A stretch of DNA of 64,000 nt. It comes from Mycobacterium sp. GTDB lineage: Bacteria; Actinomycetota; Actinomycetes; Mycobacteriales; Mycobacteriaceae. Below the pieces are notes generated by a model. It saw only the letters and a program-made list of their open reading frames with translations, ran no database searches and was not told the origin of the DNA. Both the position numbers and the translations under genes were made by a program. Positions 1,909 to 8,955 of this stretch are shown here, one piece after another (position 1 is the stretch's first letter; every line of letters begins with the position of its first letter). The DNA lies in the NCBI GenBank assembly GCA_035996225.1, contig DASYJS010000370.1, forward strand, positions 3,917 through 67,916, given 5' to 3'.

Positions 1909-2931
1909 CTACCGACGGCTCATTACGAGTTTGCCGGCGGTTTTGTGCAGCTCGATTGCGGTGACCTTCTTGCCCGTACGGACTTCGCGGTCGAGTTGGC
2001 GCTGCTTGGACACCTCGAACTTGTCGCAGGCCATCTCGAGTTCCTGGATCAGCACGGCGAGGTCATCGCGCAACGCGGCTGCTTCACCGGTGAAGTCCTC
2101 GCGCTCGAAGATGCGCCATTTCTTCAGCACCGGCATGACGACCTCGTCGAGGTGGATGCGCGGATCGTAGACGCCCCCGACGGCGATGAACACGGCCTTG
2201 CGGCGGAACTCGGGCACCTGGAAGCCGGGCATCTGGAAGTTGCGCAGGATCTTGTGCAGCGACTGCATCGCCTGATTGGGCGAGATTGCGAACCCGGCGT
2301 CGCTGACATCACGGTAGAAGATCATGTGCAGGTTCTCGTCGGCCGAGATCTTGCCCAGCAACTGGTCGGCGATCGTTTCGTTGCAGGCTTTACCCGTATT
2401 GCGGTGCGAAATTCGGGTCGCCAGCTCCTGGAACGTGACGTAGATGACCGAATCGAACAGGCTCGTGGCGAATATGTCGTCTCGAATCTGGTGGTTCTGG
2501 CCCGGGCTGAAGCCCCGGTTGACCACCTCGAGGCGCAGCTTCTCCAATTCCACCGGGTCGACCGCGCGGGTCACCACCAGGTAGTCGCGCAGCGCGATCC
2601 CGTGCCGGTTCTCTTCGGCGGTCCACCGGTTGACCCACTGGCCCCAGGGGCCGTCCAGGCCGAAGTTCATCGCGATCTCGCGGTGATACGACGGCAGATT
2701 GTCTTCCGTCATCAGGTTCTGCACCATCGCCACCTGGGCGAGGTCAGAAAGCTTGCTTTCCTCCGGGTGCCACTCCTGGCCGCCGAGCGCGTAGAAGTTC
2801 TTCCCATCTGACCACGGTATGTAGTCGTGCGGGTTCCAGGACTTATGCATGCTCAGGTGACGGTTCAGGTTCTTCTCGACGACGGGCTCAAGTTCGTGTA
2901 GTAGCTGCAGCTCGGTCAGCTTGCCGGACAT
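1909..2931 (-). CDS. desA1: Acyl-ACP desaturase DesA1 (di-iron stearoyl-ACP desaturase family)
   Basis: 340 aa; MSGKLTELQLLHELEPVVEKNLNRHL..., EENRHG and DENLH di-iron motifs; matches remembered Rv0824c; GGGGG Shine-Dalgarno before the ATG. Confidence 0.92.
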   Translation of the reverse strand: MSGKLTELQLLHELEPVVEKNLNRHLSMHKSWNPHDYIPWSDGKNFYALGGQEWHPEESKLSDLAQVAMVQNLMTEDNLPSYHREIAMNFGLDGPWGQWVNRWTAEENRHGIALRDYLVVTRAVDPVELEKLRLEVVNRGFSPGQNHQIRDDIFATSLFDSVIYVTFQELATRISHRNTGKACNETIADQLLGKISADENLHMIFYRDVSDAGFAISPNQAMQSLHKILRNFQMPGFQVPEFRRKAVFIAVGGVYDPRIHLDEVVMPVLKKWRIFEREDFTGEAAALRDDLAVLIQELEMACDKFEVSKQRQLDREVRTGKKVTAIELHKTAGKLVMSRR

Positions 2932-2995: not shown

Positions 2996-3066
2996 GTTCT
3001 CGCCCGTCCGTGGCGGGTCACAACTCTGCGTCGGAATGCGGGCGCTGCCCGCCGGACGCAAAGCCG

Positions 3067-3678
3067 CTACTCCGATACCCCTTCGGGGGGCGGTACATAC
3101 GGGGCCGCCGTGTTGAAAAGCATGTTGACGCAGTAATCGATGAACTGCTTGCGGCTGGCCCCCAGCTGTCTGTTCAGGTACGCGGTGAACAGACTTGTCA
3201 GACCGCCGACCAGGCTGGTCGCGATCATTTTCTGCAGTACAGGATCGCCGATGCCCGACAGCTTGCGCTGCAGGAGATCGATGAAGTTGGGCATCCACTC
3301 CGCGCCCGACTGGGTCAGGATCGGCTCGACGGCCGGGGCCAAGAGCAGCACGCGCCCGCGCACCGGGTCGTCGACCATCAGCTCGACGAATTGTTCGACC
3401 GCTTCTCGAGGGGTGTCCGCCGACGTGAGGGTCGTCATGGCCCGCGCGCAGACATCGTCGTACACCGCGCGCACGAATTCGTCCCGGTCGGTGAAGCTCT
3501 CGTAGAAATATCGTTCGGTCAGCGCGGCCTTGCGGCAGACGGCACGGACCGTCAGGGCAGGCCCGCGCTCGCTGCCCAATAACTGCACGCCAGCGGCGAT
3601 GAGGTTGTCGCGACGAAGGGCGTGGCGACTTTCCAGGGGGACGCCTGACCAACGGCCCCGTCGTTGACCAGACTGCAC
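3067..3678 (-). CDS. TetR family transcriptional regulator (Rv0825c-like)
   Basis: HTH region LTVRAVCRKAALTERYFYESF. I prefer the GTG at 3678 (AGGAG 4 nt upstream) over the ORF-track start at 3717. Confidence 0.85.
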   Translation of the reverse strand: MQSGQRRGRWSGVPLESRHALRRDNLIAAGVQLLGSERGPALTVRAVCRKAALTERYFYESFTDRDEFVRAVYDDVCARAMTTLTSADTPREAVEQFVELMVDDPVRGRVLLLAPAVEPILTQSGAEWMPNFIDLLQRKLSGIGDPVLQKMIATSLVGGLTSLFTAYLNRQLGASRKQFIDYCVNMLFNTAAPYVPPPEGVSE

Positions 3679-3697: not shown

Positions 3698-3717
3698 GTG
3701 ACAACGCACGTAGTCAC
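3698..3717. promoter_or_regulatory. Candidate TetR operator in the divergent intergenic region
   Basis: GTGACaACGcaCGTaGTCAC: 20 bp with 16 symmetric positions, between TetR (start 3678) and the Rv0826-like gene. Confidence 0.35.
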
Positions 3718-3745
3718 AATTTCGGCTAGCTACAGGAAACCCACA

Positions 3746-4810
3746 GTGAACCAACATACGTCCGCAGCGTGTCCACTGACCAGCGGCGAAGCTGGTCGCG
3801 GCGCGCCCACCGTCGGCCAGGTGGCAATTTCTCCTGATGGGCCCAATGGTGTCGCCGGTGGCTGTCCGGTGTCGCCGTCGGGATATCAGGCGCCGCCGAT
3901 CCCGCTCGGCCCGGATTCTTTGACATGGCGCTACTTCGGGGATTGGCGCGGCATGTTGCAGGGCCCGTGGGCAGGCTCCATGCAGAACATGCACCCCCAG
4001 CTGGGTGCGGCGGTCATCGACCACTCGACTTTCTTCCGGGAACGCTGGCCCCGCCTACTGCGGTCGCTGTACCCGATCGGCGGAGTTGTCTTCGACCAAG
4101 ACCGCGCCCCGGTCACCGGCGCCGAGGTGCGCGACTACCACGTCGACATCAAAGGTGTTGACGAACAGGGTCGCCGCTACCACGCGCTGAACCCCGACGT
4201 CTTCTACTGGGCGCATGCCACCTTCTTCGTCGGGACTATCCATGTGGCCGAACGGTTTTGCGGCGGCCTGACCGAGGCGCAGAAACGCCAATTGTTCGAC
4301 GAACATGTCGACTGGTACCGGATGTACGGCATGAGCATGCGGCCGGTACCGGCGTGCTGGGAGGAATTTCAGGTTTACTGGGACCACATGTGCCGCAACG
4401 TGTTAGAGAACAACGAGGCCGCACGTGCCGTGCTGGATCTGACTGAGCTGCCCAAACCTCCATACGCGCGGGGGGTTCCGGACTGGTTGTGGGCGGCGCA
4501 ACGCAAACTGCTGGCGCCGTTCTTCGTCTGGTTCACCGTCGGTCTTTACGAGCCGCCGGTTCGCCAACTGATGGGCTACCGGTGGTCACGCCGCGACGAA
4601 TGGCTGCACCGGCGGCTCGGTAACCTGGTTCGTCTCGTTTTCTCCTGTGTGCCAACACGATTCCGCAAACACCCTCGGGCCAGGGCCGGTTTGGATCGTG
4701 CCTCTGGACGGATCCCGACCGGCACGCCGCTGGTGCACACACCGGCGCGCAACCTGCCGCCGCTCGATGAGCGCGACAACCCGATGCACTACTGCCCCAA
4801 GGTTTCCTAG
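3746..4810 (+). CDS. MpaB/DUF2236-family oxygenase-like protein (Rv0826-like)
   Basis: LTWRYFGDWRGMLQGPWAGSMQNMHPQLG... is typical of DUF2236 as I remember it. Start uncertain: GTG at 3746 with a weak AGGAAA, or GTG at 3698. Confidence 0.75.
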   Translation: MNQHTSAACPLTSGEAGRGAPTVGQVAISPDGPNGVAGGCPVSPSGYQAPPIPLGPDSLTWRYFGDWRGMLQGPWAGSMQNMHPQLGAAVIDHSTFFRERWPRLLRSLYPIGGVVFDQDRAPVTGAEVRDYHVDIKGVDEQGRRYHALNPDVFYWAHATFFVGTIHVAERFCGGLTEAQKRQLFDEHVDWYRMYGMSMRPVPACWEEFQVYWDHMCRNVLENNEAARAVLDLTELPKPPYARGVPDWLWAAQRKLLAPFFVWFTVGLYEPPVRQLMGYRWSRRDEWLHRRLGNLVRLVFSCVPTRFRKHPRARAGLDRASGRIPTGTPLVHTPARNLPPLDERDNPMHYCPKVS

Positions 4811-4842
4811 CGATCCTTGTTTTTTGGGTAGTGTCCTGCGTG

Positions 4843-5046
4843 TTATGCGTGGGCGTGACTGTGCACGTCTTCCAGACCGGACTGATGCACGTGCTGATGG
4901 CTGTGCTCGGTCCCGTCCTGGTGGGCGTGGGAGTGCTCGTGCGTGACGTGCTCGTGCTCATGCGTGGTGTGCGCGTGCGTGTGAGCCACATCGGCGTGCT
5001 GGTGTTCGTGCGCGTGCGCGGTGTCATGGGTGTGCGGCTCGGTCAT
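4843..5046 (-). CDS. Small histidine-rich protein (67 aa, 23 His, HxH repeats), putative metal-binding peptide co-transcribed with kmtR
   Basis: MTEPHTHDTAHAHEHQHADVAHTHAHTTHEHEHVTHEHSHAHQDGTEHSHQHVHQSGLEDVHSHAHA. GAGGAG lies 7 nt upstream of the ATG. The ORF sits 41 nt downstream of the kmtR stop on the same strand. Confidence 0.6.
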   Translation of the reverse strand: MTEPHTHDTAHAHEHQHADVAHTHAHTTHEHEHVTHEHSHAHQDGTEHSHQHVHQSGLEDVHSHAHA

Positions 5047-5087
5047 GGTCAGCTCCTCGTCCGAAATATGTGGTGGTTAGCCGTTGT

Positions 5088-5477
5088 TCACGGTTTTGGC
5101 GATGCCGATGATTCGGCCACCGCCTTCAGTCCAGTACCGTCGCGGTGATGCCGGGGAACCCCGGGTCCGGCGTGCTCGGCGTTGAAGACAGCGTCGATGA
5201 CGAGCTGGCGGACGTGGTCGTTCTCTAGGCTGTAGAAGATCGTGGTGCCGTCTCGGCGGGTGCGTACCAGGCGTGCCATCCGCAGTTTCGCAAGGTGCTG
5301 GGACACCGATGGCGCCGGCTTGCCGACGTGCTCGGCAAGCTCGTTGACCGACATCTCGCGGTGCGTCAACGACCACAGCACCTGCACCCGGGTGGCGTCG
5401 GCCAGCATGCGGAAGGCTTCGACCATCAAACTGGTTTGGTCGTCCGGCAACCGGGCTTCACTATTACCTGCATGCAT
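5088..5477 (-). CDS. kmtR: ArsR/SmtB-family Ni(II)/Co(II)-sensing repressor KmtR
   Basis: 129 aa; near-identical stretches to remembered Rv0827c (FRMLADATRVQVLWSL..REMSVNELAE.VGKPAPSVSQHLAKLRMARLVRTRRDGTTIFY). C-terminal ligand region DHVRQL...NAEHAGPG.PRHH is conserved. Confidence 0.9.
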   Translation of the reverse strand: MHAGNSEARLPDDQTSLMVEAFRMLADATRVQVLWSLTHREMSVNELAEHVGKPAPSVSQHLAKLRMARLVRTRRDGTTIFYSLENDHVRQLVIDAVFNAEHAGPGVPRHHRDGTGLKAVAESSASPKP

Positions 5478-5488
5478 ACGCAGATAAT
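5463..5488. promoter_or_regulatory. Candidate KmtR auto-operator: hyphenated inverted repeat overlapping the kmtR start codon
   Basis: ATTACCTGC-atgcatac-GCAGATAAT; arms 8/9 complementary. The kmtR start codon (5475-5477) lies in the spacer. Confidence 0.35.
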
Positions 5489-5516
5489 AGCTCGAACATC
5501 GCTTTGGGCGGCGGGT

Positions 5517-8441: not shown

Positions 8442-8514
8442 TGCCCCCACTAGGACTCGAACCTAGGACCTGCGGATTAAAAGTCCGTAGCTCTACCAAC
8501 TGAGCTATAGGGGC
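8442..8514 (-). tRNA. lysT: tRNA-Lys (anticodon UUU)
   Basis: Reverse complement GCCCCTATAGCTCAGTTGGTAGAGCTACGGACTTTTAATCCGCAGGTCCTAGGTTCGAGTCCTAGTGGGGGCA folds as a cloverleaf; anticodon loop CTTTTAA. CCA is encoded at 8439-8441. Confidence 0.93.
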
Positions 8515-8652
8515 AGTGACGATTCAGGATACTTGGGCCAGAATCGCGACTCGAACGCCGCTCGTTTGAGGATTGGGCCTGCGGTGACCTAAGCTGGCGT
8601 GGCTCCCAACGGTAGTTGCGTTGCGAGTGCCCCCGGAGTGATTCGGACTTTG

Positions 8653-8725
8653 GCCCCCATCGTCTAGTGGCCTAGGACGCCGCCCTTTCACGGCGGTAGC
8701 ACGGGTTCGAATCCCGTTGGGGGTA
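8653..8725 (+). tRNA. gluT: tRNA-Glu (anticodon UUC)
   Basis: GCCCCCATCGTCTAGTGGCCTAGGACGCCGCCCTTTCACGGCGGTAGCACGGGTTCGAATCCCGTTGGGGGTA; anticodon loop CTTTCAC; no encoded CCA. Confidence 0.93.
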
Positions 8726-8772
8726 CGCGCACGGCGGCAACGTCGGAGCGAGCAGTATTCGCAGGAAAGCAA

Positions 8773-8846
8773 GGCCCTGTGGCGCAGTTGGTTAGCGCGC
8801 CGCCCTGTCACGGCGGAGGTCGCGGGTTCGAGTCCCGTCAGGGTCG
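8773..8846 (+). tRNA. aspT: tRNA-Asp (anticodon GUC)
   Basis: GGCCCTGTGGCGCAGTTGGTTAGCGCGCCGCCCTGTCACGGCGGAGGTCGCGGGTTCGAGTCCCGTCAGGGTCG; CCA encoded at 8847-8849. Confidence 0.93.
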
Positions 8847-8881
8847 CCAGCACGGCGAGGCACACGCTGCCTTCCGGTCAC

Positions 8882-8955
8882 GGCCAGGTAGCTCAGTCGG
8901 TATGAGCGTCCGCCTGAAAAGCGGAAGGTCGCCGGTTCGATCCCGGCCCTGGCCA
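8882..8955 (+). tRNA. pheU: tRNA-Phe (anticodon GAA)
   Basis: GGCCAGGTAGCTCAGTCGGTATGAGCGTCCGCCTGAAAAGCGGAAGGTCGCCGGTTCGATCCCGGCCCTGGCCA; CCA encoded at 8956-8958. Confidence 0.93.

What the first reader, a model, noticed from the sequence alone, without database searches (positions are those of the whole stretch)
4843..5046. Poly-histidine mini-protein encoded directly downstream of the Ni/Co sensor kmtR
A 67-codon ORF with 23 His arranged as HxH/HxHxH repeats sits 41 nt after the kmtR stop on the same strand, with a GAGGAG Shine-Dalgarno 7 nt before its ATG. Asp and Glu are interspersed among the His residues and there is no Cys. The composition resembles Hpn-type Ni storage/buffering peptides, and the position implies co-transcription with, and control by, a Ni(II)/Co(II)-responsive ArsR/SmtB repressor. 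I do not recall an annotated equivalent next to Rv0827c in M. tuberculosis. This could be an unannotated metal-buffering or chaperone component of the KmtR circuit.
Basis: partly seen in the sequence, partly recalled or inferred. Interest (0 to 1): 0.72.

Follow-up and report, generated by a model that had tools for sequence, protein, structure and literature searches.

The report
Histidine-rich small protein in kmtR operon
A real, strongly conserved 67-residue protein, one third histidine, is encoded just after the nickel/cobalt sensor gene kmtR in most non-tuberculous mycobacteria; it is probably a metal-binding buffer switched on by that sensor, and no study of it was found.

Summary
Window 4843-5046 (-) encodes 67 aa with 23 His, all spaced HxH, no Cys, Lys or Arg. 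It lies 41 nt after a KmtR-type ArsR/SmtB gene and has a GAGGAG ribosome-binding site.

It is a real gene. 74 of 80 related mycobacterial genomes carry it in the same place. All 23 His columns are at least 97% His, and each uses both CAC and CAT. pN/pS is 0.30 in this frame and 1.31 in the antisense Val-rich frame, which has stops in 30 of 74 orthologues.

The gap to kmtR runs from -4 to 132 nt, and 70 of 73 orthologues have an SD-like motif. A conserved 11-8-11 palindrome covers the kmtR -10 box and its leaderless start. The same sensor and operator drive a CDF exporter in four genomes. In other Actinobacteria, homologues follow an alpha5-type ArsR, a Fur-family gene or a CDF gene, sometimes beside NicO or HypF.

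The best reading is a cytosolic Ni/Co (possibly Zn) buffer derepressed by KmtR. Metal binding is inferred, not shown.

The protein matches no Pfam, NCBIfam, PDB or Foldseek entry, and no paper was found. It is not an Hpn homologue. It is called in some M. avium genomes, so it is uncharacterised rather than strictly unannotated.

The parts
4843..5046 (-). Coding sequence of the 67-aa histidine-rich protein, TAA stop included: MTEPHTHDTAHAHEHQHADVAHTHAHTTHEHEHVTHEHSHAHQDGTEHSHQHVHQSGLEDVHSHAHA
   Evidence: ORF listed; composition. Orthologues in 74 of 80 genomes. pN/pS 0.30. 23 conserved His columns, each with both His codons.
5053..5058 (-). Shine-Dalgarno GAGGAG, 6-nt spacer before the ATG
   Evidence: Read from the sequence. 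An SD-like motif sits at the same place in 70 of 73 orthologues.
5047..5087 (-). 41-nt kmtR to His-rich-gene intergenic spacer, with no promoter or terminator match
   Evidence: In orthologues the spacer runs from -4 nt (ATGA overlap) to 132 nt, median 33.
5088..5477 (-). KmtR-type ArsR/SmtB metal-sensing repressor, 129 aa, with H88, E101, H102, H110 and H111 present
   Evidence: Pfam HTH_5 1.2e-12 and NCBIfam HTH_metalloreg 2e-27. Residues read from the translation. Synteny: MPAB gene, deaminase and ASdes sRNA.
5461..5490 (-). Conserved 11-8-11 inverted repeat CTATTATCTGC-GTATGCAT-GCAGGTAATAG, the putative KmtR operator. It covers the -10 box TATTAT (5484-5489) and the kmtR ATG (5475-5477), which implies a leaderless transcript.
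   Evidence: Near-invariant in 81 loci. Only one good copy in the window.
4926..4978 (.). 21-bp tandem repeat (2.5 copies, 78% match) inside the ORF, giving the heptad unit HxHxxHE (residues ~24-40)
   Evidence: Tandem Repeats Finder.
4831..5148 (+). Antisense Val/Gly-rich ORF, in codon register with the His frame. Rejected as a gene.
   Evidence: pN/pS 1.31, and internal stops in 30 of 74 orthologues. No family hit.
3698..4810 (+). Convergent neighbour, an MPAB_Lcp_cat-domain protein (Rv0826-like). It ends 32 nt from the His-rich gene stop and marks the 3' limit of the operon.
   Evidence: Pfam PF09995, 1e-73. The same neighbour occurs in M. avium and in the metagenome loci.

Best explanation
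The ORF is the second, terminal gene of a two-gene kmtR operon. It encodes a small, acidic, cytosolic protein that binds several divalent metal ions, most likely Ni(II) and Co(II) and possibly Zn(II). Binding would be through its 23 invariant histidines, assisted by Asp and Glu.

Proposed mechanism:
1. Apo-KmtR binds the 11-8-11 palindrome that overlaps the -10 box and the leaderless start of kmtR, and represses the operon.
2. When buffered Ni/Co rises, KmtR loads metal at H88/E101/H102/H110/H111 and leaves the DNA.
3. kmtR and the His-rich gene are then transcribed together, and the second gene is translated from its own SD.
4. The His-rich protein soaks up the excess metal. As available metal falls, newly made apo-KmtR shuts the operon off again, giving a sensor-plus-buffer negative-feedback module.

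Shown here: the ORF is protein-coding and under purifying selection; it is tightly and persistently linked to metal-sensor genes; the operator-like element is conserved.

Inferred: co-transcription, induction by metal, metal binding, stoichiometry, and which metal.
For: Coding:
- 74 of 80 species genomes keep the ORF just downstream of kmtR on the same strand.
- pN/pS is 0.30 in this frame and 0.56-2.0 in the other five. Nucleotide diversity by codon position is 12.1, 10.2 and 25.5.
- All 23 His columns are at least 97% His across 74 distinct sequences, and every column uses both CAC and CAT.
- All length variants are in frame.

Operon:
- The gap is a median 33 nt, ranging from -4 to 132, and 70 of 73 orthologues have an SD-like motif.
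- No promoter or terminator match lies between the genes.
- A 30-nt palindrome over the -10 box and start codon is conserved in all 81 loci.

Metal role:
- The upstream gene is an ArsR/SmtB metalloregulator with the five KmtR ligand positions.
- KmtR is a Ni/Co-responsive derepressor that out-competes NmtR for both metals (PMC7689651; PMC7055735).
- In four genomes the same sensor and operator are followed instead by a CDF exporter whose N-terminal tail is HxH-rich.
- In 80 metagenome loci, the gene directly upstream on the same strand is KmtR in 62 and an alpha5-type ArsR in 10.
- One contig has ArsR fused in frame to the His-rich domain.
- Other contexts are a Fur-family gene, a CDF gene, NicO with HypF, and nicO<>arsR-hrp-fur.

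Protein properties:
- No Cys and no hydrophobic stretch longer than 4 residues; median 13 Asp+Glu and 0 Lys+Arg.
- AlphaFold2 gives four beta-strands built from the HxHxH blocks, at moderate confidence (pLDDT 69).
Against: - There are no expression, translation or metal-binding data.
- The AlphaFold2 model is only moderately confident (pTM 0.32) and has no structural neighbour.
- The identity of the palindrome with the published KmtR footprint was not verified, because the Campbell 2007 paper is not held.
- The metal is uncertain. A review lists KmtR as responding to Zn/Co/Ni (PMC11672702), and the neighbouring Fur and CDF genes could be Zn-related.
- Some homologues have no metal gene next to them (Nocardia L087/L088 and L086).
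- Three metagenome contigs keep the gene but have lost kmtR, so KmtR in cis is not obligatory.
Confidence: 0.7

Rival explanations
1. It is a metallochaperone or hand-off factor rather than a passive buffer. It would capture Ni/Co and pass it to an exporter such as the KmtR-regulated CDF, or to Ni/Co enzymes, in the way the His-rich tails of UreE, HypB and SlyD do.
For: CDF genes that replace it downstream of kmtR carry an N-terminal tail with the same HxHxH pattern. One homologue lies directly after a CDF gene. Another lies near HypF and NicO.
Against: There is no conserved partner gene in the mycobacterial locus, where the neighbours are an MPAB-domain gene and a deaminase. There is no docking domain beyond the His blocks. 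The four CDF loci have no separate small gene, which suggests alternative solutions rather than cooperating ones.
Confidence: 0.15
2. It is a co-regulator that tunes KmtR, comparable to SrnQ working with the ArsR-family SrnR in Streptomyces griseus. It would bind KmtR, or compete with it for metal, to set the response threshold.
For: It is persistently placed right after ArsR-type sensors of two different classes. In-frame ArsR-His-rich fusions exist. The SrnR/SrnQ precedent is described in PMC7055735.
Against: The gene also follows Fur-family and CDF genes, or stands alone. It survives where kmtR is deleted. Twenty-three invariant His residues are far more than a regulatory contact would need.
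Confidence: 0.08
3. The gene is real but its metal is zinc, or copper(II), rather than nickel or cobalt. It would then be a His-based zinc buffer.
For: KmtR is listed as responding to Zn/Co/Ni (PMC11672702). (HX)n motifs are classic Zn-binding loops of ZIP and CDF transporters (general knowledge). NCBI named one copy after ZIP7. The neighbouring Fur-family genes could be Zur.
Against: KmtR derepression in mycobacterial cells is reported for Ni and Co (PMC7689651). NicO/NicT-type Ni/Co transporters and HypF lie in homologue loci.
Confidence: 0.12
4. The conserved feature is not this protein. The product would be the antisense Val/Gly-rich ORF, or the region would be a non-coding 3' element.
For: An in-register antisense ORF of 105 aa exists in the window.
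Against: The antisense frame has pN/pS 1.31 and stops in 30 of 74 orthologues. The His frame has 0.30 and is open in all 74. Start codon and SD are conserved. There is no Rfam hit and no significant RNA fold at the 3' end.
Confidence: 0.01

Closest known systems
Hpn and Hpn-like (Hpn-2) of Helicobacter pylori, small cytosolic His-rich Ni storage and detoxification proteins
   Same: About 60-70 aa, cytosolic, at least one third histidine, expressed under a Ni-responsive regulator, and thought to sequester several Ni ions per chain.
   Different: No detectable sequence or fold relationship. This family has 0 HH, 0 Cys and strict HxH alternation. The regulator class also differs (NikR against ArsR/KmtR), as does the phylum.
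SmtB-SmtA of Synechococcus: an ArsR/SmtB repressor controlling a metallothionein
   Same: The circuit logic is the same. An ArsR-family sensor that releases DNA on binding metal switches on a small metal-sequestering protein encoded next to it.
   Different: SmtA is a Cys-rich Zn/Cd cluster protein transcribed divergently. Here the ligands are His/Asp/Glu, the gene is co-directional and probably co-transcribed, and the expected metals are Ni/Co.
KmtR-cdf of M. tuberculosis (Rv0827c controlling the CDF exporter Rv2025c)
   Same: Same sensor type. The five ligand positions and the HTH are present and the locus is syntenic. Four relatives have kmtR-cdf as one operon behind the same operator.
   Different: The cargo here is a 67-aa soluble protein rather than a membrane exporter. 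As far as I recall (not tested), it is missing from M. tuberculosis, where KmtR was studied.
His-rich tails of the Ni metallochaperones UreE, HypB, SlyD and CooJ, and the His-rich cytosolic tails and loops of CDF and ZIP transporters ((HX)n motifs)
   Same: Short HxH-type motifs used to capture Ni, Co or Zn. The CDF proteins encoded after kmtR in L074, L075, L079 and L080 have such a tail.
   Different: Those are appendages of larger folded proteins. This is a free-standing protein made almost entirely of the motif, with fixed block spacing conserved across genera. The NCBI label 'zinc transporter Slc39a7' reflects composition and is not homology.
SrnR/SrnQ of Streptomyces griseus
   Same: An ArsR-family Ni-responsive regulator encoded with a small partner protein of no known family.
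   Different: SrnQ is not His-rich as far as I know, and it acts as part of the repressor complex. No similarity was found here.

Membership tests
Hpn / Hpn-like Ni-storage proteins | Sequence homology to H. pylori Hpn or Hpn-2 | tested here: not met
   Exhaustive phmmer against 1.84 billion representatives returned 22 hits. All but one (P0009, an unrelated repeat protein) carry the same HxH-block region, and none is Hpn-like. There were no Pfam or NCBIfam hits.
Hpn / Hpn-like Ni-storage proteins | Poly-His runs plus Cys pairs (Hpn) or Gln-rich tail (Hpn-2) | tested here: not met
   0 HH dipeptides and 0 Cys in the window protein, and 0 Cys in all 74 orthologues.
Hpn / Hpn-like Ni-storage proteins | Binds several Ni(II) per monomer and protects against Ni excess | not testable with these tools
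   Needs ITC or ICP-MS and a deletion mutant.
KmtR (Rv0827c) orthologue - upstream gene | ArsR/SmtB winged-helix DNA-binding domain | tested here: met
   PF01022 HTH_5 at 1.2e-12; NF033788 HTH_metalloreg at 2e-27, 94.8 bits against a cutoff of 55.
KmtR (Rv0827c) orthologue - upstream gene | Ni/Co-sensing ligands His88, Glu101, His102, His110 and His111 (Campbell et al. 2007, recalled from memory; paper not held) | tested here: met
   Counting along the 129-aa translation places H, E, H, H and H at exactly positions 88, 101, 102, 110 and 111. The definition of the site itself rests on memory.
KmtR (Rv0827c) orthologue - upstream gene | Synteny with the Rv0824c-Rv0828c region | tested here: met
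   The flanks are an MPAB-domain gene (Rv0826-like) and a CMP/dCMP deaminase (Rv0828c-like), and ASdes sRNA lies at 2546-2613. M. avium has the same order with a desaturase. The mapping to Rv numbers is from memory.
KmtR (Rv0827c) orthologue - upstream gene | Autoregulation through an operator in its own promoter | tested here: inconclusive
   A conserved 11-8-11 palindrome overlaps the -10 box and the start codon in 81 loci. It was not compared with the published footprint, and binding was not tested.
Metallothioneins (SmtA, MymT) | Cys-rich metal-thiolate clusters | tested here: not met
   No Cys in any of the 74 orthologues.
ZIP (Slc39a7) zinc transporters - the name NCBI gave one copy | Multi-pass membrane ZIP domain | tested here: not met
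   The protein is 67 aa, has no hydrophobic stretch longer than 4 residues and no Pfam Zip hit.

The most novel reading that the evidence does not exclude
This is the founding member of an undescribed actinobacterial family of histidine-only 'metallothionein analogues'. It would be a 60-70-aa protein whose fixed HxHxHxH blocks fold, on metal loading, into a small beta-sheet holding a multinuclear Ni/Co cluster. It would act as a portable buffer module that evolution has repeatedly placed behind different metal sensors (KmtR-type ArsR, alpha5-type ArsR, Fur family) and exporters, interchangeably with CDF pumps.
Probability: 0.3. Interest if true: 0.78.

Novelty: new variant of a known kind. Interest (0 to 1): 0.6.

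Why it matters
KmtR was defined in M. tuberculosis, where its known target is a CDF exporter. If I recall the H37Rv map correctly, that species lacks this gene. In most non-tuberculous mycobacteria examined here, including M. avium and other M. avium-complex species, M. scrofulaceum, M. asiaticum, kansasii-group species and Mycolicibacter, the immediate cargo of KmtR is this His-rich protein instead.

If it is a Ni/Co buffer, it would be the first cytosolic Ni/Co-sequestering protein described in mycobacteria. It would also be a His-based counterpart of the SmtB-SmtA sensor-metallothionein pair. It could help explain how these bacteria set their buffered Ni/Co levels below the threshold of the second sensor, NmtR.

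The protein has no Lys or Arg, so tryptic proteomics cannot detect it. Its composition also confuses gene callers and name-transfer rules. Both points help explain why it has gone unnoticed.

The conserved block spacing and the predicted all-beta arrangement would interest bioinorganic chemists. A natural, compact, Cys-free multi-His protein could also be useful as a metal-affinity or biosorption module.

Tried and rejected
- Pfam and NCBIfam scans of the peptide, and Pfam scans of 29 family members: no family.
- PDB sequence profile search at E up to 10: nothing.
- Foldseek of the AF2 model against PDB: best E-value 2.3, so meaningless.
- Word-indexed protein search with the single peptide: one hit only. 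With a profile: 26 hits, mostly frameshifted or chimeric metagenome calls named 'hypothetical protein'.
- Exact-sequence look-up of 10 orthologues in the 15-billion-protein collection: none present, even for the M. avium gene that is called on CP040250. Absence from that collection therefore says nothing about annotation status, and I dropped the argument that gene callers systematically miss it.
- Literature: 'KmtR' plus 'histidine-rich', mycobacterial His-rich small proteins, Streptomyces Nur, and six peptide motifs searched as text. No paper describing this protein was found. The Campbell 2007 KmtR paper is not held.
- Search for the KmtR ligand residues in held papers: not found.
- Terminator and promoter scans and an RNA fold of the 3' end: nothing significant.
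- A second KmtR operator in the window, for example before a cdf gene: none.
- Antisense ORF as the real gene: rejected.
- His-operon-type leader or attenuator peptide: rejected. The ORF is at the 3' end of the operon, facing a convergent gene, and has no consecutive His codons.
- Checking M. tuberculosis directly: not possible.

Full report
**1. The observation**

The ORF at 4843-5046 on the minus strand is exactly as described.
- It has 67 codons with an ATG start. It contains 23 His (19 CAC, 4 CAT), 7 Glu and 4 Asp, and no Cys, Lys or Arg.
- The histidines give 16 overlapping HxH pairs and never sit side by side.
- GAGGAG lies at 5053-5058, six bases before the ATG.
- The upstream ORF on the same strand (5088-5477) ends with TGA 41 nt before the ATG.
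- GC3 in this frame is 0.84, compared with 0.78 for kmtR.
- No other stop-free stretch in any frame of the 64-kb window exceeds 11 His in 60 residues. This one has 22.

**2. Is it a gene?**

I used the upstream regulator as an anchor and fetched 80 loci, one per species, from the genome collection.
- A His-rich ORF follows the regulator on the same strand in 74 of them: 73 complete and one cut by a contig end.
- All 74 coding sequences (73 complete orthologues plus the window copy) are distinct.
- In a codon alignment, nucleotide diversity by codon position is 12.1, 10.2 and 25.5. Pooled pN/pS is 0.30 in the His frame and 0.56-2.0 in the other five frames.
It has pN/pS 1.31 and internal stops in 30 of 74 orthologues.
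- All 23 His columns are at least 97% His, and every one uses both CAC and CAT across species. That shows synonymous drift under strict amino-acid constraint.
- Length variants are all in frame: a 6-aa insertion in L004, a 21-aa deletion in L055, and insertions in L056 and L062.
- The start codon aligns across species, and an SD-like motif precedes it in 70 of 73.

The His frame is therefore the real product.

**3. The family**

An alignment of 29 diverse members (A1) shows fixed block architecture, not loose low complexity. The blocks are HxHxHxH, 4 residues, HxHxH, 2, HxHxH, 2, HxHxHxH, 5 (usually DGTE), HxHxHxH, 7 (QxGLExx), HxHxH.
- Nineteen His residues (and the initiator Met) are invariant, and V34 and G45 are nearly so.
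- The central part is a 21-bp (heptad HxHxxHE) tandem repeat at the DNA level.
- Across orthologues the median length is 67 aa, with 23 His, 13 Asp+Glu, 0 Lys+Arg and 0 Cys. No hydrophobic run exceeds four residues, so the protein should be soluble, very acidic and cytosolic.
- AlphaFold2 on a shallow 18-sequence alignment gives four beta-strands (residues 11-17, 20-26, 33-41 and 47-55) made of the HxH blocks. Mean pLDDT is 69 and pTM 0.32. This is suggestive only.
- Foldseek finds nothing in the PDB (best E-value 2.3). A profile search of PDB sequences finds nothing at E up to 10.
- Neither Pfam nor NCBIfam has a model for it.
- An exhaustive phmmer search of 1.84 billion representatives found 22 hits. 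A profile search of the 5.8-billion-cluster set found 26. Many are frameshifted or fused calls. Names are 'hypothetical protein' or, once, 'zinc transporter Slc39a7, partial'.

**4. The upstream gene and the control region**

The 129-aa product is an ArsR/SmtB metalloregulator (HTH_5 1.2e-12; NF033788 2e-27).
- It has His, Glu, His, His and His at positions 88, 101, 102, 110 and 111. As I recall them, these are the positions of the M. tuberculosis KmtR sensing site. The original paper is not held.
- The locus is syntenic with the Rv0824c-Rv0828c region. It has ASdes sRNA, a TetR-like gene, the MPAB-domain gene, the regulator and a CMP/dCMP deaminase. M. avium has the same order.
- Aligning the 5' ends of all 81 loci reveals a nearly invariant 30-nt element, CTAyTATCTGC-GTATGCAT-GCAGrTAAyAG. 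In the window it lies at 5461-5490.
- This element is an 11-8-11 inverted repeat. Its left arm contains a TAyTAT -10 box six bases before the kmtR ATG, which implies a leaderless mRNA. A TTGAC-type -35 box sits upstream in 50 of 81 loci.
- It is the only good copy in the window.
- This arrangement is what an autoregulated ArsR-type repressor would need. I have not compared it with the published KmtR footprint.

Between kmtR and the His-rich gene there is no promoter or terminator match. The spacer is short everywhere: median 33 nt, with ATGA overlaps in five species. The gene is followed 32 nt later by the end of a convergent gene, so it is the last gene of the unit.

**5. Evidence for a metal role from other contexts**

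- In four of the 80 genomes (L074, L075, L079, L080) the same sensor and operator are followed by a CDF exporter instead. Its N-terminal tail is itself HxH-rich. Two genomes (L022, L050) have nothing between kmtR and the convergent gene.
- A metagenome scan with the family profile gave 80 more loci. I classified their neighbours by tblastn with reference proteins. The gene directly upstream on the same strand is KmtR in 62 and a different, alpha5-type ArsR (DxHx10Hx2H motif) in 10.
- Of the remaining eight, three have no upstream sequence on the contig and two are unknown. In the other three kmtR has been deleted, leaving its promoter fused to the His-rich gene.
- In the alpha5-ArsR lineage the layout is nicO (divergent), then arsR, the His-rich gene (ATGA overlap) and fur.
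- Other homologues lie immediately after a Fur-family gene or after a CDF gene and beside a Fe-type SOD fragment. Another lies next to NicT/NicO and HypF.
- One contig encodes an in-frame ArsR-His-rich fusion that still carries the internal SD and ATG.
- A few homologues have no obvious metal gene beside them: Nocardia, which is divergent from a membrane protein, and L086.

**6. Mechanism**

Reviews state that KmtR represses a CDF exporter and is released by Ni(II) and Co(II) in mycobacterial cells. They also state that it out-competes NmtR for both metals, making it the more sensitive of the two sensors (PMC7689651; PMC7055735). One review also lists Zn (PMC11672702).

Taken together, the most likely reading is as follows. 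Apo-KmtR sits on the palindrome. Ni/Co binding releases it. The leaderless kmtR message continues into the His-rich gene, which is translated from its own SD. The product chelates excess Ni/Co through His/Asp/Glu ligands. Falling metal availability then lets new apo-KmtR close the loop.

Coding status, linkage and operator conservation are shown here. Co-transcription, induction, metal binding and metal identity are inferred. I put 0.7 on the buffer/sequestration reading. Three alternatives remain open:
- a chaperone or hand-off role (0.15);
- a regulator-tuning role like SrnQ (0.08);
- zinc rather than Ni/Co as the metal (0.12, an orthogonal question about metal identity that overlaps the readings above).

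**7. Comparison with known systems**

In function it resembles Hpn/Hpn-like of H. pylori and, in circuit logic, SmtB-SmtA. It is a member of neither. It has no homology to Hpn, no poly-His runs and no Cys.

It resembles the (HX)n tails of CDF and ZIP transporters and of the Ni chaperones UreE, HypB and SlyD. Unlike them it is free-standing, with conserved block spacing. The ZIP7 name given by NCBI is an artefact of composition.

**8. Annotation status and novelty**

The gene is called as a 68-aa product with no Pfam domain in two M. avium genomes (CP040250 and CP083996). It is not called in CP022105, where a 20-bp tandem duplication breaks the frame. A partial call exists on a JGI contig that carries the window's exact KmtR. 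So it is uncharacterised and inconsistently annotated, not strictly unannotated.

I found no paper that describes it, including by searching peptide motifs as text.

I could not fetch M. tuberculosis. My recollection is that Rv0826 and Rv0827c are only about 50 bp apart, as in L022 and L050. That would explain why KmtR studies never met this gene.

I rate it a new variant of a known kind, namely a small His-rich metal-sequestering protein under a metalloregulator. Interest is 0.6.

Noticed in passing
L082:3083-3122 (M. avium-group genome CP022105.1, 4.83 Mb): A perfect 20-bp tandem duplication (cacaccgacggcaccgaaca x2) inside the His-rich gene shifts the frame, and no gene is called there. The tool reports 14 similar places not shown. 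Two other M. avium genomes (L083, L084) have the intact 68-aa gene. This may be a lineage-specific pseudogene; the genome size suggests subsp. paratuberculosis, which I did not verify.
   Followed up: partly
L131, L132 (2880-3002), L133 (metagenome contigs): kmtR is almost entirely deleted. Its -35 box, -10 box and the left operator half (TTGACA...TATTATCTGCGTAT) remain and are now fused about 80 nt upstream of an intact His-rich gene. This looks like a natural variant with the buffer gene freed from the sensor encoded in cis.
   Followed up: partly
L074, L075, L079, L080 (downstream of kmtR): In these four genomes kmtR is followed on the same strand by a CDF exporter gene instead of the small gene. 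The exporter has an HxH-rich N-terminal tail (for example GHHLHHDHSHEHDHNHDH). The same operator precedes kmtR.
   Followed up: partly
L085:572-1153; also P0032: An alpha5-type ArsR is fused in frame to the His-rich domain (193 aa). The SD (AGAGGAG) and the ATG of the small gene are still present inside the fusion. This could be a real fusion, a lost stop codon or an assembly error.
   Followed up: partly
L169:1249-3667: In a non-mycobacterial lineage the layout is a NicO-type Ni/Co transporter (divergent), then an alpha5 ArsR, the His-rich gene (ATGA overlap with the ArsR stop), then a Fur-family regulator. This is a compact putative Ni/Co homeostasis cluster.
   Followed up: partly
window 5461-5490: kmtR appears to be leaderless. 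A TAyTAT -10 box sits exactly 6 nt before its ATG in all 81 loci, and the 11-8-11 palindrome spans the -10 box, the transcription start and the first codons.
   Followed up: yes
window 2546-2613 (+): Rfam match to ASdes TB sRNA (RF01781, 90.2 bits, E 1.3e-20). This fits synteny with the desA1 (Rv0824c) region of M. tuberculosis.
   Followed up: no
window 8442-8955: A cluster of four tRNA genes, one on the minus strand and three on the plus strand (Rfam RF00005, 63-73 bits).
   Followed up: no
protein collection (tool behaviour): The exact 68-aa M. avium product is listed as a called gene on CP040250, yet it is 'not in the collection' of 15 billion proteins. The same is true of nine other orthologues. 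His-rich low-complexity proteins seem to be filtered out, so absence from that collection is not evidence that a gene is unannotated.
   Followed up: partly
L088:2028-2846 (-) and 3001-3324 (+), Nocardia tengchongensis: The Nocardia homologue is divergent from a 272-aa multi-pass membrane protein of unknown family. It is called as 107 aa, with a non-His C-terminal extension. This could be a frameshift or a real extra domain.
   Followed up: no
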